A stretch of 64,000 bases of DNA from Raillietiella orientalis (lineage: Eukaryota), in assembly GCA_036172245.1 (NCBI GenBank), contig JAYWIR010000004.1:3224001-3288000 (forward strand), read 5' to 3'. Below, piece by piece: positions 5,201-29,700 of this stretch (position 1 is its first letter; each line of letters starts with the position of its first letter). The position numbers and the translations under genes were made by a program. The notes below the pieces were generated by a model, which saw only the letters and a program-made list of their open reading frames with translations, had not been told where the DNA came from and made no database searches.

Positions 5201-8200
5201 TTCTGAAGAATTTGATTGGTATGTGATCTCGGTTCAGGAATGTTATGATTAATTGTTAGAATTAATATTTTTTTTTGTTTTTTTCGTTTTGGAAGTTTTC
5301 ACATAATTTGTTTGACATCTGATCCTCATATGATACGGATAGTTCCGCAAACGATCAGGTTTGGAGATTTTTACATTTGTTCTCCATATAATTTATTGTT
5401 TCCCTCTAGGAAAATCAATAGTAATTAATAAGAATGCAATTACATAACAACTTATTTTTTAGCATAAATAGTTGTCCAGCTGGACTTAGAGGAAAAATTT
5501 GTTCTGGGAATGGTGTCTGTATTGCTGGACAATGTACATGTAATTCTGATTTTACTGGCATAGCATGTGATGTTGCTATTTGTCCTGGAAATTGCCATCA
5601 GGGAGCATGTGATAAACTACATCACCAATGTGTTTGTGATGCTGGCTATACAGGTGTGTAGATGCATTTGATAAGAATACCAACATAATTATGTTTGTGT
5701 AGGAGTGGATTGTAGTCAGAATGTGCATGGAGGAGTTTGGGAAAGTATTATCCCCACATCTTCATTTGTACCATCTCCTCGTGCATCCCATGTTCTGCTG
5801 GAGTATCAGCATTATTTATTGATTGTGGGAGGATTAACTTTTGAAGTAGGTTTAGTTCACTGAGATCTGCAGTTTGTGAAAGAGTCAGTAGGTAGAAGAA
5901 CAAATGCATGTCCACCAATTTAATGTACAGTCTGAACAATGGTTCACCTTTTCCGATAAACATAATACTCATTCTGCTGTTAGTCCTTTGCCACGTTTTT
6001 TACATTCAGCTATCTTATACAAGGTTTGGCTATTTTTTATGAATGTTGTGAAATGCCAGAAATGTTTAGAATTATATTTTTGTTTATGGTGGTTCACTTC
6101 TGAATGGCACTGCTGTTAATGAAATCTGGCAGTTTGATCTTGCTGAAGGATTATGGAAGCAAATAAATACTGTGAACAAAGAGTGCCAAATTAACTGTGA
6201 TCCACTGCATGTTATGGGGCATTCAGCAGTCCGAGTGGATAAGCGGATGTTAGTGTTTTTTGGTTATTCCCCCTTATATGGTTATTGTCATTTTGTACAA
6301 GAGTTTCATCTAGGTATCAAGGCTATTAAAATGTGCAGCATACAAATGGATGTTCTGTTCATCAGGTTCTATGGAATGGAGCATTGTTGAAACAAAAGGT
6401 GCTATAATTTGGGGAAAATTTGGCCATACAAGCATCTATGACGAACACAGTGGCAAGGTATTTGTGTATGGTGGTTACCAATCAGAGGGAAGAAACCGAA
6501 ATCGCATCAGTGCTGATCTCTACTCATATGATCCTTGGTCCCGTATCTGGTACTTGTTTGTTAACATGGCCACATCTCATACTTTCTGTAGGATTCTACT
6601 GACACCTAGCAAGCAGGGTGCCTACTTGCACATAGCTGTGCTCCATCATGGACTCATGTTTGTTTTTGGAGGCAATATGCAAGATTCTGATCCTAATGAA
6701 CAAGGTCATTGCTATTCATCCCAGTTTCTTGTGTATGATACTGTGTGCAATTCTTGGACTATCATGCCAGAACCAAATCTTCTAACCAGTAACAAAGGAC
6801 GCTTTGGGCATGCAGCTGTGGTACATCATGGATCGATATATTTTCAAGGGGGATTTTCTGGGATTCTGGAAAAAGATTTGTTGCATTATACTCCAGGCAA
6901 CTGCTCCTTCTTTCATACCAAAGAAAAGTGCTTAAGTGTTACCTGTGGAGATAAATGTATCTGGGATGAAAAATCTCAGAAATGTTATCATCTAACTGAT
7001 AAACTACCATCTGATTCTGCATTAGTGAAATGCTATCACTCCCCTACTTCTGAAGTGCATGTATCCCTGTGTTCTACTTTCACTTCATGTCAGACATGCC
7101 TGCATACTTCATTTGGATGTACTTGGTGTTTAGATACTTGTGTATATGGCTCATGTCCAGAAGGAACTATGGGAACTATTTATCCCAGCCACTGCCCATG
7201 GCGTATCTCAACCCATTGCATGCGTTATCAGAATTGTCAAGCATGTCACTTGCAGGAATATTGCAGATGGAATGAAGATGAGTGTTGTGCTGGTCCTATT
7301 CCTAACAGTATAGCTAATGTGACTAGTGTATCAGAACAGCAGGAACGGTGTGTGCCACCCTGTAGTCATTTAACTACTTGTGGTGAATGTATGTTGGTGG
7401 GCTGTTTGTGGTGTGAGCATCCACAACGGTGCATCGAGAACAATGGCTACTTGCCTTCTTTTTTGTATGGACAGTGTCTTAAATACACTACAAGCTCTAG
7501 CCATTGTCATAATATACCCACAGGTAGGGAATGATTTGAAGCTATATAGATAGGCATTAGGAAAATTCTCGGTCAATTGCATGTTTGTTCTTATTAGATG
7601 GAACACCTTGCAATGCTCATCAGACATGTGAAGATTGCTTAACAGATACAGTTTGTGGATGGTGTGATGATGCATCTGGAACAGGAACTGGAAAATGCAT
7701 GGAGAGTAAATTGAACAATATGACTAGCAACCAAATGGCTTGTCCAGCTCACCGCTGGTTTTATACAAGTTGCCCTGGTAAGCCTAATGCACTTTTGGTA
7801 TGTATGATTGTGTTGTAGCTTGTCAGTGTAATGGCCACAGTAAATGTGGAGAAGATGGACATTGCATACAACCATGCCATGATTTAACAGAAGGACCTAT
7901 GTGCCAGTACTGCCAAGCAGGCTATTTTGGGAATCCTTTGAATGGTGGTAACTGCCAGGGTAAGTGGTGGTATTTATTTATTTGACTGATGGAATTGTTG
8001 ATAGCTTGCCAGTGTAATGGCCATGGAGATTTGTGTGATCGTGAAAAAGGACGTTGCCTCTGTACTATCAAGGGGATTGTAGGTGATCAGTGCAATCGTT
8101 GCGATACACAAAGTCATTATTTGGGAGATCCACTGAATGGGGGAACATGTTATTGTGAGTGCACAAACAGATGTATCAATAGTTGTCCTCAGATGAACTC

Positions 8201-9110
8201 AGTGTAGACTATCAGTTTACCTTCAATCTCTCAAAGGAGGAAGATCGTCACTATACAAAAATTCATTTTCGTAACACACCTAGCAAACCCGATGTAGATA
8301 CGGAGTTCTATATTTCATGTTCAGTGGCTGCACGGCTTAACATTTCCATCCGTCAAGGTAAAGTACCTGGGAATTCAGTGCTTTATGTATGTTCATTTAC
8401 ATTTCAGGAATCAATGCTAGTGAAAAATTACTATTTTCCAATATTAGTTGCGAGAGTTTCCGTGTGCGCTTCTCAAAGAATGATTACCATTTTGGTACAA
8501 CCGAAAATACTACTTTTTTTGTTTATGTATATGAAGTGCATCCTCCCCTTCTCATAATGGTAGCCTTTTCCCAACATCCTAAACTAGATCTGTGGCAATT
8601 TTTCATCACATTCTCGACATGTTTCTTAACTCTACTGATTATAGCAGCGATTTCCTGGAAAATCAAACAGAAATGCGATCTCTATCACCGTAGACAACAG
8701 TTGTTTGTGGAGATGGCAAAAATGGCCAGTCGTCCTTTTGCTCACATCAGTTTAGAATTGGATACAAGCCAAGATTCCAGTTGTTTGCTGGAAACAAGTG
8801 AGCAACATAAACAGGTCTGTATGTGGATAGCGATACTTTGTTTTGATAGTTTATGTAGGAATTTTCCGGTCCTGTTGCACTTGAGCTATGTTTGGATAAT
8901 AAAGCAGCAATTTTATCTTTAATAGTGCAACAGCCTCGAGGAGGAAGTCCATATACTCCAGCAGGCCAGTCTGGATTAGCTATTGCCTCAGCATTGGTAA
9001 CAGTTGTAAACCCAAAAAAGATGACTGCTGCAGAGACAGTGCATAAAGAAGACTCGAAAGTGAAATATTCAAAAATTGTTGTTGGTACTCAAGCTGGTGT
9101 ACATCTTTGA
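2207..9110 (+). CDS. ATRN: Attractin / attractin-like membrane protein (CUB, EGF, kelch repeats, PSI, laminin-EGF, TM, conserved cytoplasmic tail; no C-type lectin domain seen), ~1222 aa, 15 exons
   Basis: Manually spliced GT-AG exons with consistent phases: 2207-2430, 2839-3039, 3153-3275, 5463-5653, 5703-5845, 5892-6023, 6070-6313, 6366-6549, 6592-7523, 7598-7777, 7819-7959, 8005-8154, 8193-8357, 8408-8814, 8859-9110 (3669 nt). Hallmark motifs: TDGPGNY..QFATECGWDFLYIYDG, TSGYAYLYFFSD, CQCNGHS, DYQFTFNL, QFFITFSTCFLTLLIIAAISWKIKQ, EMAKMASRPFA, GLAIASALV. Confidence 0.95.
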
Positions 9111-9453
9111 TGTATCCTAAAATATTTTTAAAGTGTTTGCATATTTGCAATGAAGATTTATGATGTAATTATTGATTTATGTGGCCAATTTATTGTGTCT
9201 CAATTTGATTCTTAGTTATTCATATTTGACGATATGCTAATTATTATTTATTGTCATGGTTTAAGTAATATATAATTTTATTCTTTTTTGTGGCTTTTAT
9301 CAGTTATGAAATGGTTGTTTATATAGCATTTTCAAATACACTGTATGAAAGCAAATTGGTTGCCTTGCATTCATTAAATGCAAAATTTGAATTAAAACAT
9401 TAGTAAAAAATTTTCATATCCAATTTAAGTATAGTAAGTCGTTAGTACAAATT

Positions 9454-9459: not shown

Positions 9460-12341
9460 AACTAATTTCATGCCAAGACGTCAAGTATGGAGAAACTGCC
9501 TACCCAAAAATACGCTTTTAACCTTTTCTGCCAATATGCACCATCTGTCCAAGAAATGTTTCATTGTTTGTTTTCAGAATTTAAAGTAAAATGTTTTAGG
9601 AACTTTTCTTCATCGTTTCATTTTAGAAATGAATAAATAATCTTAAATATGCTTATTTCCATTGAGCTAAAATTTTTAAAAGGCTCCAACTTCACATGAA
9701 ATCATTCATGTGGCTTTCATATGAGAACATGGCTAATCCCATGGGAAGAAAATAGATTGCATCTCTTATTCTTCTAACCCCAGAAAAGAGTACATGCAGT
9801 TTACATTTCCTGTATTGCTTATTTAATGTACCTTGTTCTTCAGACATGACTTTTGTAAACAAAAGCAGTAATGAAACTTTTGAAAATGGATCCAAAACAA
9901 ACTGCATGCAAGTAAAGTACTGCAGAGCTTAATGGTTTTATTTTTTATTTTTTCCTGAACAATCATAACAAAAATCTCAGCATTACAAGGAAATATGGAG
10001 TCTTGCATCAAGATTGCAAAAAAAAAAAAAATGCACTTGATTGAAACAAACAAAATTTCAAATGGCACAGAAAGCATCTTGGATGCAATTGTTCACAAGA
10101 GAACTGCACACTTAGAAAAGAGGCACACAAGAACAAGGAATCACTTTTTTTTCTCTTTACAGCAGCTGAATAGAAAATCTTAAATTCCTTGAAGCATTAA
10201 ATATGTAGGAACCATGCAAACATTAAGATATCACTGTGGAAGATGGCTAAGATAAATTCTTCTGACTACAACTGGTGTAATGATAAAATTTCGATTCGAA
10301 AGACTAAACCATCTATAAAAAATTTCAAAATTCTCAACTCAGAATCTTTCCTCTTGTCCATAGTTCAGCATGTTCTTTTTTTTCCACCTGATAATGAAAA
10401 GCTTAGATACATACTGTCTACGTGAACATTAAAATGGTGAAAGTTACTTTTCATTTGTCGACAAGCATCTTGTGCGATTGCGTAAAAGTTGGAAATTGTT
10501 CAGTTTTTATCTGAAAAATAAGGCCTTCAAAAGCACATCAAAATATTGTTTGAAGGATGTTTGGCTTTCATGGATACAACGAATGGTTGCATTTCAGCTT
10601 CAGCATTCTTAGGGCCATCACATATATGCTGCAATGTCAATTCGATTGGTTTTTCATACCTCTTAATGTCTGATGATTGTTTTCTGTTTGGTATCAATCT
10701 ACACCTTAGAATTTCTTCAGAACATCATGAATGTATTTCGATGAAAGCGATTTATGGTGAAAAGAAACATTGCTTTAATGTTAAAGTCGCCAGTTTAAAA
10801 GCTCAAGCCCATGAAAAGAGTAGTCATGAAAACATTCATATGTGTCCAAGAGTAGAGCTTGAAATGAGAAGCATCATCTCAAGCTTACTTAACAGTATAA
10901 CAAAAAAAAACAAAACCAGGGATTTTTTCTGAATTTTTGAGAATGTGATTAATAGTTTTACATCATCCAATGAATACGGCACGCTTTTGCTTCTTTTCGT
11001 CATTCTAGCGCGTAACCCAGTTACATGAGGAAAATAAACCAGTTTAAAAACAATTATTCGGAAACTTAATCACATTTTCAATAAGCAAGTTAAAAATTTG
11101 TTTCCATATTGTCCATTTTTCGTTATCGCCCATTCCATTCCAGACGTTTTCATTTTCTAAAGCCGTCCAAAAACTAATTTGAGTGTAAACATCTAACAGA
11201 AGCATCACTCTTAGCAGGTTTCCTCCATTACCATCAGAATTATTTTGATTTAGACGTGTAAACGATACCGCACCCAAGGCGTCAGATTTTTATCGTTGGA
11301 ATGGCCTGAAAAAAAAAAAAAAGAAGAAACTCTTCTTTCCAATCGAGGCATATAATTAGTTCCTTAATCGATGTGCTATTCTCAAAAAATGTCTGAAGTG
11401 TGTTTGCCGCGCTTACAACATAAGTCTGGTATGCTCGGGAACGGAATTGTTCTTCAGATATACTTGTGTGCATTTACGAAGCTATTAAAATCAAATATAA
11501 CTGATTGATTTACAAAATACTTTCAGCACTACTACTTATACCAGTACGACAAGGTAGCAAAACACAAAAATATTAACTGGTTAAAAATATTAATTAAATA
11601 ATATTAAATGGTCTTTTGGAATCGCTTTTGAAACAAGAGCTTGCTTTTCTATTAGATTTTGATTGTGATGAAACCATGTAGTTCGACAAACGTTGATTCT
11701 ATTAAACCTTGACAAAGTCGACGGTTTACATGTCCAGATGTTCATCGTGTTCATCGCTTAGAAATGTTCAACAAAGATCGAGACCAAAGCACGATAACTA
11801 AATATTTCAGCATTTGAAATCTCAAGTGCTTATGATGTTCTAGAAAGTGGTCCCTCAATGACTTGTAGTGTCCATTTCTAAAAATCAATTTGCTTACCGA
11901 AAGCTTTCCATGGAACTAATTTCAGTTCTTAAAGTTGTATTGAAAAAGTGATTTTGTTAAAGTCCAAATAAAAGTGTGCTCCCCTCGCTTCTCACTGTTT
12001 ACTTTGGCAAGGGATCAAAGAATTTGGAATCGTCTCTCAATGCTATAGCAAAACCGTCGACTCGTCACAAAGACGAACAATTGGCAACACTACTTTTTGG
12101 GGGTCAACAAAAACTTTTTACAAATTAGTACATCCAATGCAGAGATAAGAATTTTCACAGAGTTCGCATAAATTTTGTATGCGCTCTTCGACATTCGGTT
12201 ATTGCTTGAGGACACAATTTTCCCGTCTCACGACATTCTTCATAACAGAAAGAAACAAGAAATACTATTTTGGGAAATCTCCCTGGAGGTCTAGTACGTA
12301 GTGCCGTTCTCCCGTAAATACCGCTGCGGATGCTCGGTGAC

Positions 12342-12413
12342 AAGTAGTACGTTTTACTACGTGGTAAAACGTAGTAATAGTACGTTTTACTACTTTAAGG
12401 ATCTTGGCAACAG
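12342..12413. repeat. Nested palindromic motif cluster next to a TTGGCAAC transposon-end-like motif
   Basis: TACGTTTTAC occurs at 12348 (+), 12364 (reverse complement) and 12381 (+). It is bracketed by the inverted pair AAGTAGTA/TACTACTT and followed by TTGGCAACA at ~12404 (also at 12081). Confidence 0.6.
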
Positions 12414-14336
12414 TTTCTTGGTTTTCATTTCCATTGCTTGAGATAAGGAATTGATGGTAGCCTCACGACCCTCGTCAAGAAGCACTGTTGCATTAAAAAA
12501 CGATGGTGATCACTCTTCAATAATTTTTGCACAGAACCTTTCATCTTTCTGCATAAGTATACGTCTAGATAAGATGTATGGGAAGTGAAAGCCCACATTT
12601 TTCGTATTAGCAAACTTGCTCCGGAGAGCATTTCATGAAAAGAGGTTGCTGGTGAAATCGTTATAACACGTTTTATATATGAGAACTGTTAGCAAATGTG
12701 ATATCATACAGAGTTTTCTGTGGCCTTCCTGGGAGTTTACCATTTACCACCCTCAATTCCAACAACGTTCACGTGTGGACACATGTAAAAAGCACCTTTG
12801 GAAGTGGGCTGTGGGCTGTATGTCCTTCCAAGCATGTAAGTAGACATTAAATCAAATTGCTTGTTAGACATTTTCGCACTTGAGGAGTGATGGAAGGAAA
12901 GGGTAATACGTCATTAGATGAATACAGATCTATTCAATCTCAACACTAGCGTTGAAAGTATAACGAATGAAAATGCTTCTTTCTAGTTAAAAATTCCTTT
13001 AATAACATTAATGGAGGCAACATTTGTTCCATAGGCTTATGAAATTAAAAATGGAAAAGTAAAACTACGAACTAAAACCAAAAACCTCTAATAGAAATGT
13101 GCATAAAAGGAAAAGATGAATTTGAGAAGCTTTATTTTCGTGATTTTTTGCAATCTTGACTATCATTCTGAAAATATAGTGCAATTGTATTGAAAAATTT
13201 GCTTATTTTCATCTCGATATCGAAAACACGATAGATAATAATTTTGCTTGGTGCCTTTTTTTTTTTTTTTTTCAATGCTCGTTTCCTAACTGTTTCCTGC
13301 ACCATTAGGATTACTTCGAGAATCACATAGGCATAACAGATTCACACATGAAAAACTGAGAACTAAGACAGCTCTCTATTGAATTGGAGAGATTCTCTGA
13401 AGAAATAACAAAAAAAGACAAACAAGCAAAACTTTTTTAAAATGCAGACAACACGATTTTACATCATAAAAAACCCTTGATGGACATCAGGACCGTCACT
13501 TCGAACGACGAGAATATATTAGGAGCTGATTCTAAGCATCCGTTACTGAAATGTGTTGCTGTTTTTAATCTGCTCCTGTCATTCTTGCTTTCCAGCATCC
13601 CTGCATCTTATTCGAGAGCTCGAATAGAAGGGGAACTCAGCCGGGTGTAGTACATTCTGAGTACATATGTATCTACATCTCTAGACTACAGCTTCCACAT
13701 TTCTCTGGACGTACGAGACTGCATTTGCATGCAGGAACATACATGCAGAGATGACTCAAGAAAACGTCTAATGAAACAAGAATACCGTGTGGTCACTGTT
13801 TTTCTTTTAGTTCACAAAATCGAATCCAGTTGAATGTATTTATGCTTTGTTTGGGTGTTCACTGCATGGGCGTGGCATTTGTTTATGCAAATATGGTAAT
13901 GTAAAGCGGATGAAAATGATGAGAAAAGCACTTCTAGATCCCGTGGAAATGAAAAGATATAAAGTGAGATGCTAGTTATCGAGCAGAAAGGCAAGATTTT
14001 ACGAAATTGCCTCTCGGGGACTTGGAATCTCTCCTTTAATGGATTACGAACAATTCTGAATTTGTAATTTATTTAAACATGGTGCAATTATTTGGGACCG
14101 GTCGAAATGACCGAAAGAATCCACTTGTTATTATGTGTAATTTGCACTCCCAATCTAAGTGTACCATGAGCTGCAATTCTCGTTCTACAGGAATACTTCA
14201 TAACATAATCGTTCACATATCGACCTCAAGAATGAACAAGCAGTAATAAGTAAATCCAAACATGTACGAATATAACTACTGCAACACATGTAGAGTTTTT
14301 ATTTTTTTCACAGATATTTTTTCTCAATTTGTTTGA

Positions 14337-14372
14337 TGTGTGTGTGTGTGTGCGTGCGTGTGCGCGTGTGTG
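14337..14372. repeat. Imperfect (TG)n microsatellite
   Basis: TG run with interspersed CG units, directly visible. Confidence 0.9.
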
Positions 14373-17300
14373 TTTTTTTGAATAACCTTTCACTTCAGGA
14401 AATGCTAGTTGTGCTTCAGTTCTTTGGTTCATCCAAAGAAGCCTTGAATGATATCGTAAAGAGAACAAAGATGTCTTTCCAGCTCGCCTTCTTCACCTCT
14501 GATGCTGTTGAACATTTCATACGTTGCGTCGACAACCGAATGAATGGAGTTGTTTGAACTGCCGTACTGTTCCATCACTGCCTCCTGGACTGAATCCATG
14601 CATTCCTGGAACTGATGAAAACCACGGTCTGGTGTCCCAGTTTGGGAGCTAACGCACTCACGTCAGCGTTCATTTTGTCTTGGACCTCCAACAAGAAACT
14701 TTCGTCATCGTGCCATTTGCAGTCAAGCTCGCGAGTAATGTCCTGAAGCCCCTTGGCCAGTTCTGATTCGCTTGTGGTAAGCAAAATTGTTGAATCGAGA
14801 GAGGAACAGCTATGAAAAAGACACAGGAAAAAAAAAAAAAAAAGAAAACAGTGCTGATTTGGATTTATGATTTTCAGTACGCTTTTTCGCTATGCAGAAC
14901 GAAAACCAAATGCAAGCATTCTTGTAATTCTTTTTCATAAACGTCGATTCGGCCGAGGCATTCTAAGCATGCTTGCACGCTTTGCTGGTTGGTTTGACGG
15001 ATCTTCTGGTAAATGGTCAGGTCACTGTTTTGAAACAGACGAAGTGTGTTCTCAATCTACGGAAGAAAGATACATGCGTGAGAGTTTTATGCCTTCCTTC
15101 CAAAAGTCAAATGTAAAACCTTTTGAGTCAAAAAACTATCTCGGGAAGCGACACTCCAAACATGAGAAGAATTCAAAGGAAGATTCTTTGAAAAGCAAAC
15201 TCGCTTATTGGAAGTGAAGAAGACCCTTCATAAAATGTGCATAATCATACTTGTTTTTCTTTTGAAGCTTATCTAGTGTAGGATTTTTTTTTTTTTTTAG
15301 GGCGTTTACGATTCGAGGTTTTCAAATTAAAAGGTAAAAAAATACGCATGCTCTTATATGGATTCTCTATCGAAGGATCTCTATTCTCTATCCGTAATTT
15401 TGCAGTACCACGTTCAAATGATCCAGCAGTGCATCTTCCGTGGCTACCTCGAATAGTTTCATGACGCTCCCTTCTAAACATACCATTCGTTACATACAAT
15501 AATTTCAAAGATGTACAAGAATCATTTTGATGTATTTATACAAAAGAAAAAGAAAAAGTACATAAGAATACGATGAAACTGATCCTGAAAAAGCTTTATT
15601 ATTTAGTCAAGCAAAAACAATTTTGCCACATACAATATGCAGTTTTTTTTTTTTTTTTTTAATGAAAAAAAAAAAAAAAGGTTGCAGATAAAATGCATCT
15701 TACAAAGATGTGAATTTCTTTGGAATTTCTCGATAAACGTCATTACATTTTCAAGTGAAAAACAAAATTCGGCTGAATTTATCGACTGATCAGCGTAGTA
15801 GAAATCACGCATCGCTCAGACACTTCCCTGACCAATAAACCAATGCAATTCTGTATCATTGATTTTTCGTTTTCCTCTGTCAAGGAAGGGCGATGTTCTT
15901 AAGAATTCCAGAGGAAAAAATCGGATGTCTGCTTGAGGACCCTTATCGGCAGCGTCACATAACTGTGATCAAAGTGCTGTGAACCCTTGAAAATTGCCTC
16001 AAGCAGTGTTTGATTACGAGGTGTTGGATACGTTGCAGATTGTCTCTTAGAAAACGCACCCCAGAACCTGCATTCTACATATGCACTTACACTTTAATAA
16101 ATAAGATCAACAAACAGGTAATGAACCTAGTTGTGCAACATGTGCATAAATAAAGCATATTATAATGAAGCATCCATGAACCATCCGTCACGGATACTTG
16201 GATCGGGAAAGATTCGTATGAATCCTCTTCCTTGAAATGGAGCTTCACCGACTGACCCGGACGACAGCACAAAAAGCGCCAGCTGCTCATGTGCAAAGAA
16301 CCTCTTCATCCATCTTCCTCTTCATCCATCCCATCTCGGAAACTTCCCAAGCACAAACTCCTGCTCCATATGCTTCGGAATCAGATTCAACTCTTCGAGT
16401 GGAAAGTGCCGGGTTTCTCGTGGTTCTCTTCAGGCTGATGCAGCTGCAGAGAGCCTGCAAGGCAGCCAAGGGATGTAAAGGTCTGAGTGACTCATAGTGT
16501 TTGCAGTTGTGAGTGAAGTGAGGCAAGTTTAGGTCTTGAGTTGGGAATCGGGTGGAGGTAACTCTCTCATTTTAGAATCCTCTCTTTCAATAAGAATTCC
16601 CAGCATTCGGTTCCTTCGCCGAGTCATATCAACATCCTGTATAATTTATTCGCTCAATCGCAGTTACAATATCATTTAAAGTCCTCTTTTACAATAGATG
16701 CTCTGACTGTCTGGATATGGTCCTTGAAAAGGCATGCTTAACGATTCTAACTGATGGGTAATTGGCGCCCTGGTGATTAAAATTTTCTACATTAGGAAAA
16801 TGACATCTTGGAACACTTTTTGCGATTTTTGTTTGTTTGTTTGTTTTTTTTCGAAAGAGAATTACCATCTTCAATATCATCTTATTGCTTGCGTGCTTCG
16901 TCGTCTTACAAACACACACAAACCAGTCCTCAAGATGCACCACTGAAGCTTCTCATTTCCCTGCGAGATGATAAGTCGAGTTCGCATCTTTCAGCATGGA
17001 TTTATTACCGCTCTTCTGCTGAACCACCGAGTGATGGGACTGCTCAAGAGCCAGTGGCTGCCTGGAAACCGCATCCTGATAACACCGGTGAGGGGTTCGA
17101 GTACCGAACATTTTCTCGGATGCTGCATCAAAAACACCCGTTTTCGAGGATACACAGTTAAATACTTTTTCCTCCCATATCGGAAGGAACAAAAAAAATT
17201 AAGAAAGAAAGCCTGTGCCTGAGAGCAAACTGTCGAGCTAAGCAACATGTCAAGGCAGCATCCCGGAATTGATTTCGCATAAAATCGAAACAGAACCAAA

Positions 17301-20300
17301 CTGTCACCTCTTTTATGTAAACATTTCAGAGTTACTGTGATAAAAAAAAAAAAACATTGGGATAGTTGAAACGGGGGGGGGGGGAGAAAAAAAAATTGCT
17401 GCATTGACCTGAGCTGCCAAACTTTCTCTCATCTTCTGCAGCCAAATGCCATCGCTTCCACGACGTTGATTGATTTCATCCAAGATAATCTCGAGATTCA
17501 CTTGCAAATCTTCCAAGGAACTTCCTGGAATCGTGCTTTCACACATAATGTATGTCGTTACTTGTTATGCTGTTCGTTGCAAAGAAAGAAAAAAAAAATC
17601 ACTGCAATCCAATAATCTTTTATAATGCATATCGAATGTTCAATACATTTCGAGCACGTGAACTCGGCTAATTACAGCCAAACATGGAGTGTTGCATCGC
17701 TCATGTCACCCAGACAGGATTACGAAACATTTTGGAAGAAAAAATGGTACCACCACACTGTAGGTAATATTTGAATTTCAAAATAGGCAGTCAACGGACA
17801 ACTTCTTTGCCTGTACAGATGTTGGGACAAATTCAAATAAAAGAAATCATTTGTGCACTCGTGACATTCAACACCATTTAAAAATTGAATTACTTAATGC
17901 GCATACGTGCAAAACTTCCCAACCGGTCTATATCACATAGAATATTGTGATATAGATGATAGAACAACCGTGTACTGTTCACGTTTTCCCTGACGATACA
18001 TCGTTGGATTCCGTGTACAAATCAGTTATGGAAAACCTCAACGCTGCGTTGACTGTTTTCAGATGTTTGCTGCTTATTTGCGTCAATAAATGCTGCATGC
18101 AAAACCTGAACTGAAATAAAAGCAAAACACGATTGAACATGATTGCATTCCTTTTGCTTTCCTCTCTTCCTGAGTACACTCAGATTTTTTTTCCTTCCCC
18201 CCTTTCTTTTGCAAACATCTGGACATATGCATCCTTTCGTTTAGAGGAATTTGGGCCACATCATTTGGTAATGAATGCTTTGGGGATATTGGACTGGAAA
18301 AAGAAAAGCAAAAATGATCGGCTTCTTTGAAACCTTTGAATTTTTATTCTTTCGCAGTGAAGGGGAATGCCTGAAGCATCATGAGATGTTTGTCAGAATG
18401 GGAAGTCTTGAGGCGAAAAAGTACAGCAATCTGTTGCCCCCGTTACTCGGCGAAATTTTCAAAGGTTGCTGGTCTTAGAAGTTCATCATCTCCAAATCTA
18501 GGATGCGTCTTTCGGAGGAAAAAAAAGGAAAAACCTCAAAGAAACAAATCTGGTTCTCACGAACCTGACGAATTTTTACGCTGTGTTAAGAATTCCGCAG
18601 AAATAGCTTGAGAGTGCTCTTGTAGCCTGATTTTCGATGTGCGAACCAGAAAGGGAACTCAAGAAGAAAGGTATGCAAAAAAGAAAAAGGAAGAAGGAAA
18701 GAAGGGAAAACAAAAGTAAACCCGAGAAGAACGTGAACTGGACTGATGCCACCATTCATATCTCACCTGTCAACTTGGTCGGAGAGGATTTCTAATTTCT
18801 TGAATAGGAATGGGGAAAAATAGATAAATAGTGGATGCAGATTTTTTTTTTTTTATTACTGACGTGTTTAGGGACTCCACACTACCTAGTGAGTGCAGAC
18901 GCACTATTGTGTTCTTCCTTATCGACAGCAGACCTTGGTTGATTAGTTCACTGTTTTACCATCTCGGGAGAGAAGGCCCCCAAGGTCTTACACCTAGGAT
19001 CGGTCCCGGACAGGCGGGTGATGGGAAGCGAAGCTCCGCTCTCTCTGAGGCAGTTGAATGGAAGAGGGGAGGCTCGTGCTGTCCTTGTGGGAGTTCCCGT
19101 ATCCCATCCTGACACCCACTGGATGACCCCGAGCTGCGCAACTCCTCGAGACATTTTCTCTTTGGCCACAGGCACTACCATGAAACGAGAGCGCCCCGCG
19201 AGTCCTTGGAGGAGGAGGGGATGAACGGGGAGCGGAGGGAAGCTCTGTCAGAGGTTATCTGGACTCTGGTTCAGTAACAGAGCCGCCTCCTCCCATTTCC
19301 AGTGGCTCACGATCGAGACCAGCGCCGGCACCAGGGGTCCCCGGTGCCGAAGCGTACTCGGATTGCCTTGCGCATCCCATGGGATATCCTGGAATCTGCG
19401 CCGTGCGGGACGCTGCGCGAGTTCCGCCGATCAGAAAGCCAGAGCGCCCTGGGCGTGCGGCTTGCGCCCTGCAACGCAGAGTATGGACTGCACGGGATTG
19501 GTGCAGATGCCACACGCACTTGTAGAGCCACAGCACCTGATCCTCCACTCCAGCGGGGATGGAGCTGTCTCCAGCCTCCAAGGCGAGATCGGCAGGAAGA
19601 CTTTCGCCTCCTCCCGACGCTTCCTGGCTCCCCGATTCTCCGTGGTCTTCTTGTGAGGCTGCTGGAGATGCTCCCAGTGGGAAGCAGCGTCCACGGCATC
19701 GATCACTTGAAAGCCTCAGTGGACGCTGGTGAGTTGAGAACATTACAGGGAGGAGGAGGCGATGCCGCTGGTGCTTCCCTCCCCCACTCTCCTTTTGCTT
19801 CAGCATCTTTTCCGAATTTCAGATACCAAGATCTCTTTCTTTTCGTCCTCGAGAGATTGCTTCCAGGGCCACTCGCGTAGACGGAGGAGAGGCTGCTGAG
19901 CTACAGCAGTCCTCCGGCTCTTGTCGGTCTCTCTCTGGCTCCTCCGAGAAGAACGCGAGCTAGGTCTCCAACTCCGTTGGCAACGAGGTAGAGGCACATC
20001 AGCATCCTCCTCTGTGGGAGGCGAGGAGGAGCTCAGAGCCAGGCAACACAATCCAGGGAGGGCGTCCCCAGCTTCTCGGTGAGGTCTCTTTCTTATTTCT
20101 TCGGTCTTCTTCCCATCTGCCATCCACCAGCTCCAGAACAGGAGAGAAGAGAGGGAAAGTGGCCGCTTCGACCCTCACACCGTCTGCAGCGAACCCACTA
20201 GAAATCGGCCTGTTCAATAAATCCGCCTGGTTGGACGGGCGGCTTCCTTCCTGGAGATTCGATCTCCCCCGGATGCTTTGGCAGGCCGCAAGAGGCGCCT

Positions 20301-23130: not shown

Positions 23131-26100
23131 CTACATGGCCGTGTTGTCGTAGCAGAAGTCGTCCTTGGACTTGTCCGGAGACTGCTTGACGCACTCGTCC
23201 GGAGGTCCCCAGTCGTCCTTCGGCAGGCACGATATCTTGATGTCCTTCATAAGGAACAGAGAGGATGCGTTGTCAGAGTGAGGGCCAGGGCTGCGGCCTT
23301 TCCCCTCTCCAGCATCTCGTTCCCAGGAAGGCGACTGCTCGTCCTTCGGTGCGTCTCCGTGGAGACGGGGGTTCCTACCGTCCCGCCAGCGTCCACCGAG
23401 GAGACCCCACCTCCCGTGCGCGCGCGCGAATCCGCAGGAAGGGGGAGAGAGGAGGGACTCCGAGTGGTGGGAGAGGATGAGGATGAGGACCATCAGAAGC
23501 AGCAGGGACCTCCCCTCTCCTGCGAGAGAGAGGTAGGAATGGGAGTCGCATACTCCCCGTGTCGATGTCAGGGGCATCCGATCCAGGGGGAGGGAGTCGT
23601 CCTTTCCTCCCTTTCCGCAGTTTCCTATGGGGCTGCCATCGAGGGCGCGTTGACCACAGCGACGCGCGACGCTGAGACTCTTCGCAGTTTCGGTGGCGGC
23701 TGGGGTGAGGAGGATGAAAGGAGAAGGGAAGGATAAGCGGACAACAGATGGGCCACGGAGACCTTGACCCCTGCGCGCGCGAACCGGTTGTTGCCGTCCC
23801 GAGCGAGAAGACCACGTTCCTCTCCCGGTCCTCGTGCGTTTTCGCCGCCTGTTCGCCTCGCGGACGACGACGGAAAAGGGCATAGGTGAAGCAAAATCGT
23901 CGCATGACCCGAGACCTCTTTTCCCGACCTCCCTCCCTCCCCTCACTGCGACCCACGACGTGATGAAGAGGACCACAAGCGCTGCATACGGGGCAGGAGA
24001 ATTCCACCCTCCCTCCCGTTTCTGGAGGGATGTTCGTGTGGGCGGGATCGGCGCCGCCACATCCGGGCCCACGAGGATGGGGAGAGGGCGGCTGCCCTCC
24101 GTTCCCTCTCCCTCTCGCCCCGGGAACCGGGTGACTGTGCATTGCCACGGAAGAGAAGACCGACCGGCTAGTAGAGACGCGACGGCCCCGGCCGCACCTC
24201 GGATCCGTTGCCTTGGAAACCTGTCCCGGCCGCGCTCGCTCGTGGAGGGAGAGCGGACGGCACTAAACGCCTGATTTCGTCCACCCGGGAGGGTCGCTTC
24301 CAAGAGTTGCTGCATCCGAGGGAGGCTCTCGCGCCCGAAGCTCCGAAGTCGCCATCCGACCCCCTCCTCGCCCTTTTCTCCCCTCCTCTTGTGTGGTTTC
24401 CGAGAGGACCTGTTCCGAGAGCCTTCCTCTCTACTCTTACCTCTTCATCTCTTTTCCTTTCGCGACGGTTGGGAGCGGAGGGAAGGCTGGAAAGGGCTGA
24501 TCAAGGCCTCCTTCCCGCTCACCCTTCCTCCCCATCTCAGGACGTTCGACCTTGGCAGCCGAGAGCTGAACTCCTTGACCAACAAGGGCGAGTATGAACA
24601 CTGCGTGAAGAACAGGTCCGATCGGGGGAGCCTCCGTCTTCCCCCAGGGCAGAGAAGGACAGTTGGACGCGGGGTCAAGCGACGGGACGGCATGCAGAAG
24701 GAGGAGAAGAGAAGCGACTGAGGACGAAAGGGACAGCTGGTTTCCCTCTCTCGAGGTTCGTGGGATCCCAGCTGGAGGAAAGGACCGAATATGCTGACCA
24801 GAGTTCCCCACAGTCCGGGGTGCAGAAGAAGGGTCGGCTACGTCCCCAAAAGAGAAGGTCCTACTTCCTCCTTGAGAAGGTTCGAGCGTAGCCCGCGGAG
24901 GTTCCCGCTGATCTGACAGGGAGAGAGAAAAGAAGATGGAAAGGTGGAAGCCCCAGGAACAGCGCCTGGAGGCAAGAAGGAAGCGATGGGGAAAATCGGG
25001 AAGATGTGAAGCGCGGATGGAGCGGACAGCTTCAATCTCAGCTCAAGCTCGGGACCCGAGAAGTCCCTTCTCCTCCCTCCCCACGCGCGCCGAAAGTGCG
25101 GCGAATGAGAACAGCAAAGTGAGCGCCTGCAGACTGTCCTCTGGCATGAGTAGAGCGGCTGGGCAAGACGGCTGGGTGTACGAAGCACAGGCGGCGGTGC
25201 AGGGTCTCAGTTCGGTCTCGTGAGAACCGGCACCCTCTCCCTCTTCCCAACCCCTTGCAGGCACATCGAGGGTTCACGCCTCGACATCTTTGCTGCTTCC
25301 GCACCACGAAAGCCGTGGAGCCACTACGACTGAAAAACGAGGCGACACTTCCCTTCCTCCCCTTCCCCTTTTCAAAAGCGCGTGCGCGCGCGCGTTCACT
25401 CCAGAATCATGCGGGACGCATCGCGGGCCAAGGTGAACGATGGCTCCAACTGCAGCGCTGGCGGCTGCCGAGGGTAGTCGACTTTCTTCAAATCGAATCC
25501 CCAGGGACCTACACGATGACACCTAAAGGCCTCGTCCCAGGGCCTGCTGCTCCGAGCGCAAGGAGCGAGGGAAGTAAAGCGCAGGAGGGAGGGAGGTGGC
25601 GGGGCGTGGGTCGCAACAACCCGCCGGGAGGATCAGATACTTGCCCCGGTTCTGCAATTCTTATACAGGACAACTAAGGCCCATATAGGTATCATGATGA
25701 CCTCTACTGTGACCAACAGCCATCCGATCATGTGCGCCCATGGCGGGTACTCGATGCCCCCGTAGGTGGGGGGTTTCCAGTACAGGAACGAGATAACGAG
25801 CACTATCTGAAACGATGCGTGTGGTGCCATGGAGGCTGCTTGCTTCGTACCATTATTCCCAAGGGAGTGATGACAGACCAGCAGAATCTCCAGTACCAAC
25901 CCGGTCTGAACCGGAGCATCAGATGAAGGTCGTCGCAGAAGCGGTTTGCTCCATACACCCAGCTAATTGTGGAAGCTTCGAAAACTGCTATTAACATAAT
26001 TGTGACACCCCCTCCGTAGGTATCCATTATATCCATGACAAACTGCCCACCCTTAACGAAAGACAACAAGAATCAGCAAAACAAGCCCGACAGCAACAGT

Positions 26101-26690
26101 GCCATTCATTTTTCAACATGTTTTTTTTTTTTTTTTTTTTTAAACACGTCGAACACGCGGATCCGTGCCCGTCTGTGAGCCGCACAGATCACCATGCGGA
26201 ACACGGAAACGTCATCAAGAGTGGCGGAGTAAAAAAAAAAAAGTGCTCCCAGGCACGACCTAACCACGAAAGGGAGCATGCACCACACATGCAGGCAGGA
26301 AGGCAGGCCCACGTGTTGGGCTTCCCTCCCGCGCAATCGAGAGCCATAAAGCGGGATATCAGTTCCGTGTCTGTTGCAGCATTGTATCTCGTTTGTTTGT
26401 TTACGTTTTTGTTTCCCCTTTTGAAAACTCCCTTTACAAACATCAAACGACCCGATCCTGTGAGGCGAAAGCGATTCAGCACACTTCCGGAAAGTCATCC
26501 TGCCGATCCGCACTCTGACGGTGGATCCAGAACAGCCTGAGACGGAATCCATTTTCCTCAACAACTAATCCAAAAAGATTAAGTGACACCAGCAGTAAAA
26601 AAGAAAAAGTCCAACATGCACCTTCGTGCGAGGGTTTAAAACTGGCATGGGATGGATATGAAATTCGATCTTTACGTCAAAACACACACA

Positions 26691-26733
<43 letters not shown>

Positions 26734-29700
26734 GGATGCGGACACACAAAAGAGGGAACAAGAAAGGTGTGCCATGACTGAAACGGAAACATTTTTTCAA
26801 CGTATGAATGGAAGAGTTGTGGAAAAAGAAGGAAGAGAAATGCTGGATGCTGAATATCTTTGGATGCCGTGTTCAGCATGATAACTAAAGGAGAGGGATA
26901 TTCCCTTCGCCTATCCTGTTCACCCTGCTGCGGGATGCAATCGCGGCAGCTTGTACAACACGAAGTTTTTCCTACTCTCCGATAAAAACAGAACGTGAAA
27001 GCAGAAGAGGCTAAGAATACAAATGGTTGACAAGCGGATGGAAGCAAGTAATGCTTCCTTATCAAACTGCCTAGGGTAGCTGGTGATACCAAGAGTTTAC
27101 GTGAGGACTCCTGGATAGTCGACCAAAATACTGATGCTGTGGCCTGGAAGACCGTCAGCTCATTTAACGCCTTCTCTGCATTCCTTTTCAGTGTGCTCGC
27201 AATAATTTAATCGGTCAGTTCTGTTTCTTGCATGATCAAACCAAGGTCAAGCATCCAACCATCTCGTGCTCACATTCTAGAGCTACTGAACCGTTTAAAT
27301 AGCTGATAATTGGCATCACTACATTACGTGCGTAACGCTTTGCATGATCTCTCGACGCTCATACAAAGAAACAAGCTGTGAAGATCACAGCGTGTTTCTT
27401 TTTTTCACCAACTGTTGCCAACCTTCGTGAAGCTTGGATGGAAAGGCTCTATAGTAAATAAACAGCTAGAAGAATCTATTTTGAAAGCAAATTTATTCAA
27501 GCGTGCAGTTCTCGAAATCTGAGAGTTTCTTCCAGCCCATATGACTGCTATTTATATACTGAATGTTTAGATGAAGCTCGTGTTAAACTCGAATTATTCT
27601 TTTCAAGAGGAAAAAAAATAAATAAAAAATGAAAATAAAGCTCACAAGCAAACGCGATGTTTTCAGGTATGTGAAAGTATTTTTGGCACGAGAGGCAGAT
27701 GAGATACCGGCAAAATATCCATTAATGAAACTGTTATCATCGAGCATCCGAAACCGTCAGGCATTAGAAGAGTCGCGCGGAGACAACTAGATTATGGTTC
27801 CGTTGTTATCAGCGTTAGACGTTGCTACCGGCGCCAGACGCATGAATCGAAACACGCACTGTCGCCCCAGCAAAGTATCCACAGAGAGCAGATTCTGCTT
27901 CAGTGCCATTCATCCCTTATCGAACGCTTATGAGTTTCCCTGAGAAGGAGTTTGCAGCACCCTTCCCAGATTTTCTGCACGAAGCGGCGCGAACGCCTTT
28001 CTGATAAACGCAAGGCTGCTCGCCTGGTGCGATGGCTGGAGCACCCGGAGAGCAATGCCGGAGGACGCCCTCGATCCTTCCGACCAGGAGAACGAGGAGC
28101 GTTCCGGGCAGTTGCGGGAAGCGCAACCAGAATGCTTCTCCCGCGTTCTCTACGACCTGGAACACATCTAAAACCGCTTGAGCTGGTCTGGCGTTCGGGA
28201 GGGACCTCGGCCGCGGATACCCCCTCCCTAGCTACCCTCAGCGAGTGCGCCTGCCGGCCTGCCAGCTACCGTGGGGGCACCGCAGCGTTCGGGGGAAATT
28301 CCTTTGGGATACTCACTTCGAACAACGTTGGCAAACCAAGCAAGAAAAACCCCAGGCAAGCGACGAGCGCTAGACAGGACTTGTACGACCGAGCGCGCGG
28401 GTGCTTGTCCTTGATCGCGCTGAGGATCGACTCCACCATGCCAAACTGCAAGTCGAAGACCTCGGTCATCGTAGAGCAGCTCTGGTCAACAGCCTACCTG
28501 AGAGCTGAGCCCTAGGGTGAACAGCATGCAGAAGAACAAGGTTGCCCAGAGCTGGGGTACTGGAAGATGACTCAATGCTTCAGGATAGGTTACGAAAGCC
28601 AGTCCCTGACCTATCCACGGGAGAGCAGGGGGGAGAGAGAGAGAGAAAAAAAAAACAAGTGTTAGAGTCTTGCTGCTTGGGGGCATGGGTTGCCTCACCT
28701 TCTCGGGCAACTTTATCTATAGGGATATTGTACACTACAGACCAATTTCCCAAAACACTAAATATCACAACGCCGGCTAAGAGCGATGTGAGAAAATCCA
28801 TCACACTTACTATCATGGCGTCCACATGCACTTTGTTGTGAAAGTCATTATACGAGCCGAAATTAATCAAACTACCCCAAGATATCCCAAGGGAAAAGAA
28901 CACTTGCTCTAGTGCTTTGCGCCACACTTGGGGATTGTAAAGTTTTTTCCACTCGGGAATGAAAAGGTATTTCACTCCTTCTATGGCTCCTTCCAGAGTC
29001 AAGCCTTTGACGAACAAGATGAACAGGATGACGTAAGGGAAGGTGGACGTGAAGTAGACTGCCTGGAGATGCGAAAAGGATGGGGGAGGGAGGGAGGGAG
29101 GTTGAGCAAGCCCCCTTGGCAACCTTCGAGTACGAACCTTCCCGGAGGATTTGATGCCTTTGAAGAGACCCATGAAGAGGATTAACCACGACAGCAAGCT
29201 GCAAAGGATGAGGAAGGAGCGAGGCGAGCCGATGTCCCCGAAGGTGGTCAGGCCTTCTATCTGCAGGCTCAGAACGTACTTCCTGGAATCGAGATAACCA
29301 AGAAGAGAGGGAAGAGGAGGATGAGGAGGAGGGAGAGGAGGAGGTCACGGGGCGAGGGAGCGGCCCGCGGTCACTTACTCCCAGAACTGCTCGCTGGACG
29401 ACTGAAACCGGACCGCGGTGCAGTTCGCGTTCCCGGAGCCGCTGCCATCCTCGCAGCCGCCCTTCACCTCGCTCATGTTCCGGGTTCTCACGTAGCAGGT
29501 GGCGTTGCTCGCGCCCCACCAATCTTCGCAAGTGCTCCAAGGCACGGGAGTCTGCCACGAACAAAACAGATAGAAAAGAGTGTACGCCATCAGAGTATTG
29601 TAGTACACAACAACAACGGAGGTCGACACCAGCATGGACATTCCTATTCCTGGAATGGGATACGCTAGCAGCAGGGGTGCCAGAGGCGAGCTACGCGATT

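What the first reader, a model, noticed from the sequence alone, without database searches (positions are those of the whole stretch)
9481..17546. Apparent pseudogene of a motile-cilium central-apparatus gene (CCDC180/CFAP76-like) hidden in 'intergenic' DNA
Seen: spliceable minus-strand exons encoding coiled-coil sequence, with in-frame stops (16322, 15388, 14429). At 14429 the homology-like text continues in another frame (LLWMNQ). The neighbouring attractin and SLC6 frames are intact, which argues against general sequencing error. Knowledge: CCDC180/FAP76 belongs to the axonemal central pair; the match to it is from memory. Inference: the gene is decaying, which could mark recent loss of 9+2 motile cilia, flagellated sperm or male function in this lineage.
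Basis: partly seen in the sequence, partly recalled or inferred. Interest (0 to 1): 0.72.

Follow-up and report, generated by a model that had tools for sequence, protein, structure and literature searches.

The report
Decaying extra copy of ciliary gene
The stretch holds the worn remains of a coiled-coil gene that is probably a spare copy of a flagellar scaffolding gene, and because an unbroken version and its partner genes sit elsewhere in the same genome it is an ordinary dying duplicate, not a sign that this animal has lost motile flagella.

Summary
A real gene remnant lies on the minus strand. At 15473-14090 six exons join through five GT-AG introns into 222 open codons; the parse of 15.6-14.2 kb beats 60 of 60 simulations. 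The three cited stops exist but do not show decay: 15388 is intronic on that path, 14429 is out of frame, and 16322 lies off a 94-codon frame. Decay is better shown by the flanks (16.7-15.6 and 14.0-9.2 kb), which have no exon chain above chance, and by two well-spliced small exons with in-frame stops. No tool tied the locus to CCDC180 (0 of 53 Pfam queries); that match is recalled, and the tests were insensitive. HYDIN-, SPEF2-, CFAP74-, CFAP69-, DLEC1- and RSPH4/6-like genes have open frames where looked at. Verdict: probably an old, decaying duplicate; no evidence for loss of 9+2 cilia. The scan holds no earlier CCDC180 note, only a like case for SPATA17 in another genome.

The parts
17409..17546 (-). 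Candidate first exon: ATG at 17546, 46 codons, donor GTCAAT
   Evidence: Sequence; donor score 5.7; most of it picked unaided by the parser
16290..16571 (-). 94-codon open frame spanning the cited 16322 stop; no spliced link to the core above chance
   Evidence: 16.7-15.6 kb parse reached by 28 of 60 simulations
16322..16324 (-). Cited TGA, in a frame with two further stops upstream; lies in the first copy of a 14-nt direct repeat with 16-nt spacing (16330-16301)
15409..15473 (-). Core exon E (65 nt)
15057..15408 (-). 352-nt GT-AG intron holding the cited TAG 15390-15388 and a second TAG 15369-15367
   Evidence: Donor 4.9, acceptor 7.7; the later donor at 15345 that would make the stops exonic scores -1.0
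14881..15056 (-). Core exon A (176 nt), followed by a 71-nt intron with a weak donor (1.0)
   Evidence: ESM recognition value 2590, above the 2300 mark
14662..14809 (-). Core exon B (148 nt), best coiled-coil-type composition peak of the region
14612..14661 (-). 50-nt intron GTGAGT...TCAG; explains the apparent B/C frameshift
   Evidence: Donor 6.8; 0% of attractin and C22 exon bases are spanned by an equally good pseudo-intron
14523..14611 (-). Core exon C (89 nt)
14443..14522 (-). 80-nt intron GTATGA...CAAG that moves the frame to LLWMNQ; a stronger donor at 14496 (54-nt intron) would leave TGA 14431-14429 in frame
   Evidence: Donor 3.2 against 6.6; equally good pseudo-introns span 8-12% of real exon bases
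14387..14442 (-). Core exon D (56 nt); holds the cited TGA 14431-14429 out of frame
14090..14224 (-). Exon F after a 162-nt intron; open to a TAA just past 14090; its 3' end is unknown
   Evidence: F was set by hand; the parser chose another exon here
11232..11305 (-). Probable dead exon: strongest acceptor of 14.0-9.2 kb (12.3), good donor (6.1), in-frame TAA 11292-11290
   Evidence: the region as a whole is not above simulation
10339..10510 (-). Probable dead exon pair 10510-10448 and 10387-10339 around a 60-nt intron, phase-compatible, with in-frame TGA 10453-10451
   Evidence: Acceptors 8.0 and 8.4, first donor 4.6, second donor weak at -2.6; pieces chosen by hand
9481..9544 (-). Candidate last exon ending in TGA 9483-9481
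   Evidence: assignment to the gene is recalled resemblance only
5463..9112 (+). Neighbour: attractin, last 12 exons, unbroken, tail to tail with the locus
25633..29650 (-). Neighbour: SLC6 transporter exons, open where examined

Best explanation
The locus is an old, intron-containing second copy of a CCDC180/FAP76-type central-apparatus gene that no longer makes a full-length protein. The working copy is on contig C22. With that copy supplying the C1 projection scaffold, the window copy lost constraint: its 3' half has decayed to background while about 220 codons of the front half keep exon-intron structure. Shown: the spliced core, the lack of an exon chain elsewhere, the open C22 gene, open partner genes. 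Inferred: duplication, redundancy and order of decay. Recalled and untested: that the window copy belongs to the CCDC180 family.
For: Core parse above 60 of 60 simulations; 16.7-15.6 kb reached by 28 of 60 and 14.0-9.2 kb by 46 of 60, no better with stops allowed (12 to 39 of 40). Two small well-spliced exons carry in-frame stops. C22:2949440-2936424 gives 17 exons, 16 GT-AG introns, 1142 codons, no inner stop, 51 and 56 stops in the other frames, with DUF4455 6-133 at its front (E 9.8e-6) and DUF4456 149-190 near its end (E 0.21), the domain pair listed for FAP76/CCDC180 in PMC6548120 (table passage). The window DNA is single-copy. Partner genes open. Recalled: human CCDC180 resembles the window in order at about ten places from 16.6 to 9.5 kb.
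Against: No family, structure or homologue search linked the window to CCDC180. Window and C22 are not alike above controls in six comparisons (best guided result 16 of 200 shuffles), so paralogy is not shown. An open 222-codon core is odd for a long-dead gene. The C22 model was parsed by hand, guided by recall; one acceptor scores -3.2 and no start exon was found. No reads or RNA could be laid.
Confidence: 0.6

Rival explanations
1. A live, shortened gene: exons from 17546 to about 14090 are spliced into a 300-400 residue helical protein like the front half of CCDC180, and only the old 3' half is dead.
For: Open 222-codon path with five GT-AG introns; the 50-nt intron is convincing; ATG exon with a good donor.
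Against: No chain above chance links 16.7-15.6 kb to the core; the A donor is weak (1.0); the stronger donor at 14496 puts TGA 14429 in frame.
Confidence: 0.17
2. The remnant comes from another coiled-coil gene and the CCDC180 likeness is a product of helical composition and memory.
For: 0 of 53 Pfam queries and 0 of 7 PDB queries hit CCDC180-type entries; no similarity to the C22 gene.
Against: The same tests miss the intact gene: 0 of 11 C22 exon pieces, 2 of 19 C22 queries, 0 of 3 PDB queries. Two readers recall the same family independently of tools, over a collinear 7 kb.
Confidence: 0.15
3. The gene is whole and the breaks are assembly errors.
For: Reads could not be checked; long homopolymer runs are frequent in the region.
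Against: Attractin, 370 bases away, has no break in 1039 codons; C22 has none in 1142; indel errors would not erase exon signal over 4.8 kb.
Confidence: 0.05
4. One reading: the only CCDC180 is dying because the lineage recently lost 9+2 cilia, flagellated sperm or males.
For: Hydin_ADK gave no match and CFAP54_N only a weak one with a stop (E 0.057). Partial loss of the motility machinery is reported for Daphnia (PMC10425847, passage). Partner genes were checked only in part.
Against: Open C22 gene; open frames in HYDIN-, SPEF2-, CFAP74-, CFAP69-, DLEC1- and RSPH4/6-like loci; fap76 mutants still swim.
Confidence: 0.03

Closest known systems
CCDC180 / C9orf174 (CFAP76), Chlamydomonas FAP76: DUF4455 (PF14643) plus DUF4456 (PF14644), C1c projection of the central apparatus
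   Same: Long helical coiled-coil type sequence; recalled collinear likeness from front to tail. The C22 gene carries both domains in order. FAP76 = CCDC180 per PMC6548120 (table passage); long filament on C1 contacting C1d/C1e per 10.1101/773416 and PMC12297659 (passages).
   Different: The window copy gives no Pfam match, has an open path of only 222 codons, and no detectable exons in its 3' half; it is not measurably similar to the C22 gene.
Unprocessed (duplicated) pseudogenes
   Same: Keeps introns; carries premature stops; a working relative exists elsewhere.
   Different: No DNA or protein similarity to the working copy is left, so the duplication would be very old; part of the frame is still open.
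Unitary pseudogenes marking loss of ciliary motility (lineage losses in nematodes, Ixodes, partly Daphnia; PMC10425847, passage)
   Same: A ciliary gene in decay in an arthropod.
   Different: Here a second open copy and open partner genes exist, so it is not unitary.

Membership tests
CCDC180/FAP76 (window locus) | DUF4455 (PF14643) in the front half | tested here: inconclusive
   No match in any window query nor in the genome search; but single exons of the intact C22 gene also fail (0 of 11). The spliced protein could not be scanned.
CCDC180/FAP76 (window locus) | DUF4456 (PF14644) near the C-terminus | tested here: inconclusive
   No match; the genome search missed the C22 domain too.
CCDC180/FAP76 (window locus) | Collinear similarity to an orthologue | tested here: inconclusive
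   Against the only family member in hand (C22): not above controls. No outside orthologue could be fetched.
CCDC180/FAP76 (window locus) | Open frame of about 1100-1700 residues | tested here: not met
   Supported open path is 222 codons; 14.0-9.2 kb has no exon chain above simulation.
CCDC180/FAP76 (window locus) | Location on the C1 microtubule | not testable with these tools
   Needs localisation or an axoneme proteome.
CCDC180/FAP76 (C22 gene) | DUF4455 followed by DUF4456 in one open frame | tested here: met
   E 9.8e-6 (24.9 bits, under the 30.4 cut-off) and E 0.21, in order on a 1142-codon spliced frame; both are partial, sub-threshold matches.
Duplicated pseudogene | Disabling changes inside exons | tested here: inconclusive
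   The three cited stops can be bypassed; two other stops lie in well-spliced exons chosen by hand or by the parser, in a region not above simulation.
Duplicated pseudogene | A working paralogue in the same genome | tested here: inconclusive
   An open C22 gene exists, but its kinship to the window locus rests on recall.
Unitary pseudogene marking loss of 9+2 cilia | No intact copy and parallel decay of partner genes | tested here: not met

The most novel reading that the evidence does not exclude
The front half is a live, truncated paralogue: a crustacean-specific second CCDC180 that kept only its DUF4455-like arm, with small introns (50 and 80 nt) newly cut out of former coding sequence so that the frame stays open, and that may modify the C1c projection of an unusual sperm axoneme.
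Probability: 0.12. Interest if true: 0.45.

Novelty: new member of a known kind. Interest (0 to 1): 0.16.

Why it matters
As it stands it matters little: a decaying duplicate is ordinary. Its use is as a caution. In a genome with 38-80 nt introns, apparent stops and frameshifts in a fast-evolving gene are often introns, and a claim of organelle loss needs the whole gene set, which here argues for a retained central apparatus. If the core proved to be a live truncated paralogue with introns gained from exon sequence, it would be a small but clean case of intronisation. If the animal belongs to a group with aflagellate sperm, the intact central-apparatus set would itself be the more interesting question.

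Tried and rejected
Sequencing runs: none was listed, so no reads were laid. Pfam: 0 of 53 window queries gave DUF4455/DUF4456 (6, 1 in 24, 15 in 27, 2 in 52, 20 in 58, 1 in 60, 8 in 83; three of them were off-frame slips). PDB by sequence: 0 of 7 window and 0 of 3 C22 queries hit a central-apparatus protein (51, 117, 118); whether the copy holds a CCDC180 chain was not shown. Representative search gave two tandem-repeat artefacts. Word-based searches: 6 candidates for exon A and 234 for the C22 front, none at E<=10. ESM Atlas: no usable hit. Metagenome hit L008 is a bacterial-type frame, chance. Single-sequence model of the C22 front: helical, pLDDT 62, no Foldseek match. Third-copy candidate C6:473298 (E 0.24) lies beside low-complexity sequence and was judged chance. 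My first reading of the C22 hit as antisense noise, and then of C22 as frameshifted, was wrong: the breaks are introns. My first reading of the B/C break as a homopolymer frameshift was dropped for a 50-nt intron. A transposon or recent segmental copy was rejected: only short poly-T/poly-A hits elsewhere. SPAG6, SPAG16, CFAP46 and CFAP221 were not searched. Two paper searches on sperm type in Branchiura, Pentastomida and Ostracoda found nothing.
Full report
Setting. The window is G000:C4:3224001-3288000 of a 210-Mb animal assembly in 491 contigs. Attractin matches arthropod and mollusc proteins at 32-35%. A mitochondrial contig reads trnY, trnW, cox1, a gap, cox2, trnD (ARAGORN); a trnL2-like sequence after cox1 was seen by eye only. 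That order is pancrustacean with trnK displaced, as in several non-malacostracan groups (PMC1590035, passages). Earlier scan notes call the genome ostracod-like (unchecked). Introns are short: 38-74 nt in attractin. This matters for everything below.

The observation. To test the pieces without homology I built splice matrices from 44 donors and 44 acceptors of six other genes and a parser that chains stop-free exons. It recovered five consecutive exons at 15470-14387 and most of the ATG exon. The 15.6-14.2 kb core scored 31.3 against 6.2 mean and 16.6 maximum in 60 simulations; with a generic amino-acid model 17.6 against 16.9 maximum, the reversed sequence giving 16.6. The whole 18.7-13.9 kb scored 78.0 (0 of 60 simulations) with the coiled-coil model but 44.9 (15 of 60) with the generic one. 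The core is helical by periodicity (7 of 1000 shuffles). So a gene remnant is real.

The cited stops. Joining 15473-15409, 15056-14881, 14809-14662, 14611-14523, 14442-14387 and 14224-14090 through GT-AG introns of 352, 71, 50, 80 and 162 nt gives 222 codons without a stop. The 50-nt intron is convincing (no equally good pseudo-intron in attractin or C22 exons); the 80-nt one is less so (8-12%), and a stronger donor at 14496 would leave 14429 in frame. The stop at 16322 sits in a frame with two more stops upstream, while another frame is open for 94 codons across it. The three stops therefore do not show decay.

Where decay shows. The stretches 16.7-15.6 kb and 14.0-9.2 kb give no chain above simulation (28 of 60 and 46 of 60), nor when stops are allowed (12 to 39 of 40). 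The best acceptor of the 3' half (11305) opens a 74-nt exon with an in-frame TAA, and a phase-compatible exon pair around a 60-nt intron (10510-10339) has an in-frame TGA. These are suggestive only, since the region is not above background and the pair was chosen by hand. Assembly error is unlikely: attractin has no break in 1039 codons and SLC6 exons are open. No sequencing run was listed, so reads were not checked.

Identity. No tool tied the locus to CCDC180: 0 of 53 Pfam queries, 0 of 7 PDB queries, and blanks. These blanks carry little weight, because the intact gene described next is missed in the same way (0 of 11 exon pieces; 2 of 19 queries; 0 of 3 PDB queries; no homologue at E<=10). 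From memory, human CCDC180 resembles the locus in order at about ten places between 16.6 and 9.5 kb, including the stretches with the 11292 and 10453 stops. This is recall and comes from no call. I put the family assignment at about 0.8.

A working copy elsewhere. The DUF4455 search of the genome gave one match, on C22 (E 0.0024). Its two stops lie in a 45-nt intron. Pfam gives DUF4455 6-133 at E 9.8e-6 and, 12 kb further on the same strand, DUF4456 149-190 at E 0.21; this pair defines FAP76/CCDC180 (PMC6548120, table passage). Read by hand, the locus gives 17 exons and 16 GT-AG introns, 1142 codons with no inner stop, and 51 and 56 stops in the other frames. Caveats: the parse was guided by recall, one acceptor is weak, and the start exon is missing; the first exon found begins 61 nt after the stop of a PSMD5-like gene. 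Window and C22 are not similar above controls (chain 450 against 401-470; 77 against a control mean of 84; best guided result 16 of 200 shuffles), and the window DNA is single-copy. If they are paralogues the split is old.

Partner genes. Of nine other central-apparatus or radial-spoke families searched in the genome, five matched over the cut-off (Radial_spoke, SPEF2_C, HYDIN-type Ig, CFAP69, CFAP74), two matched under it in open frames at fitting places (DLEC1 Ig, SPEF2_D5 17 kb ahead of SPEF2_C), CFAP54_N was weak with one stop and Hydin_ADK gave nothing. Spliced pieces were open: 86 and 145 codons of a HYDIN-like gene, 162 of RSPH4/6, 167 of SPEF2, 283 of CFAP74. The CFAP69 read-through holds two stops ahead of its match that I took as intronic but did not test. 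Only parts were examined; SPAG6 and SPAG16 were not searched.

How it most likely works. FAP76 forms a 32-nm filament on the C1 microtubule that links the C1c, C1d and C1e projections; mutants swim at about half speed on curved paths (10.1101/773416, passages); mouse CCDC180 lies along C1 and binds ANKMY1, GRK3 and CFAP99 (PMC12297659, passages). The C22 gene can supply this part (inferred). The window copy is then redundant and decaying, the 3' half gone and the front still parseable (0.6). Rivals: a live truncated gene (0.17), another coiled-coil gene (0.15), assembly error (0.05), loss of 9+2 cilia (0.03).

Literature seen. Passages of PMC12297659, 10.1101/773416, PMC6548120, PMC10425847, PMC1590035 and PMC6771690; search listings only for the rest. 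Searches showed no paper on CCDC180 duplication or loss in arthropods; the library lacks most subscription journals. No supplements were opened; that of PMC10425847 may list CCDC180 presence across species. That ostracod sperm lack a flagellum and branchiuran and pentastomid sperm have one is recalled; searches did not confirm it.

Verdict. Real remnant, weak cited evidence, untested family label, refuted inference. New member of a known kind; interest 0.16.

Noticed in passing
G000:C22:2949440-2936424 (L004, L005), minus strand: Open 17-exon CCDC180-like gene whose first found exon starts 61 nt after the stop of a PSMD5-like gene on the same strand; no ATG exon in between. A donor inside the last PSMD5 exon (2949640, score 3.8) appears to be in frame with it, so a fused or nested transcript is possible.
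   Followed up: partly
G000 contigs C2, C5, C8, C16, C18, C27 (L010-L018, L027-L034, L052, L053): A very divergent but open set of central-apparatus and radial-spoke genes in a crustacean-type genome. If the animal belongs to a group with aflagellate sperm this retention would be unexpected.
   Followed up: partly
G000:C8:491576-491794 (L009): Weak CFAP54_N match with one TGA; a decayed or intron-split CFAP54 was not resolved.
   Followed up: no
G000:C282:1-3086 (L038): Mitochondrial contig: trnY-trnW-cox1, about 500 nt non-coding before cox2, cox2 abutting trnD. The cox1 search gave 43 matches, most in large nuclear contigs (numts).
   Followed up: partly
window 16330-16301 and 15392-15362: Two of the cited stops lie in short direct repeats (14 nt at 16-nt spacing; 10 nt at 21-nt spacing).
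   Followed up: no
window 12397-12345: Short near-palindromic repeat built on GTAGTAAAACGTACT.
   Followed up: no
window 1-64000: GC rises from 29-41% in the first 18 kb to 55-65% at 20-38 kb; housekeeping genes sit in the AT-rich part.
   Followed up: no
window 6550-6591: A 42-nt attractin intron without a stop in frame, which hides inside the 406-codon open frame.
   Followed up: yes
L007:3752-4357 (G000:C22), minus strand: Mariner-like transposase remnant upstream of PSMD5 (by eye).
   Followed up: no
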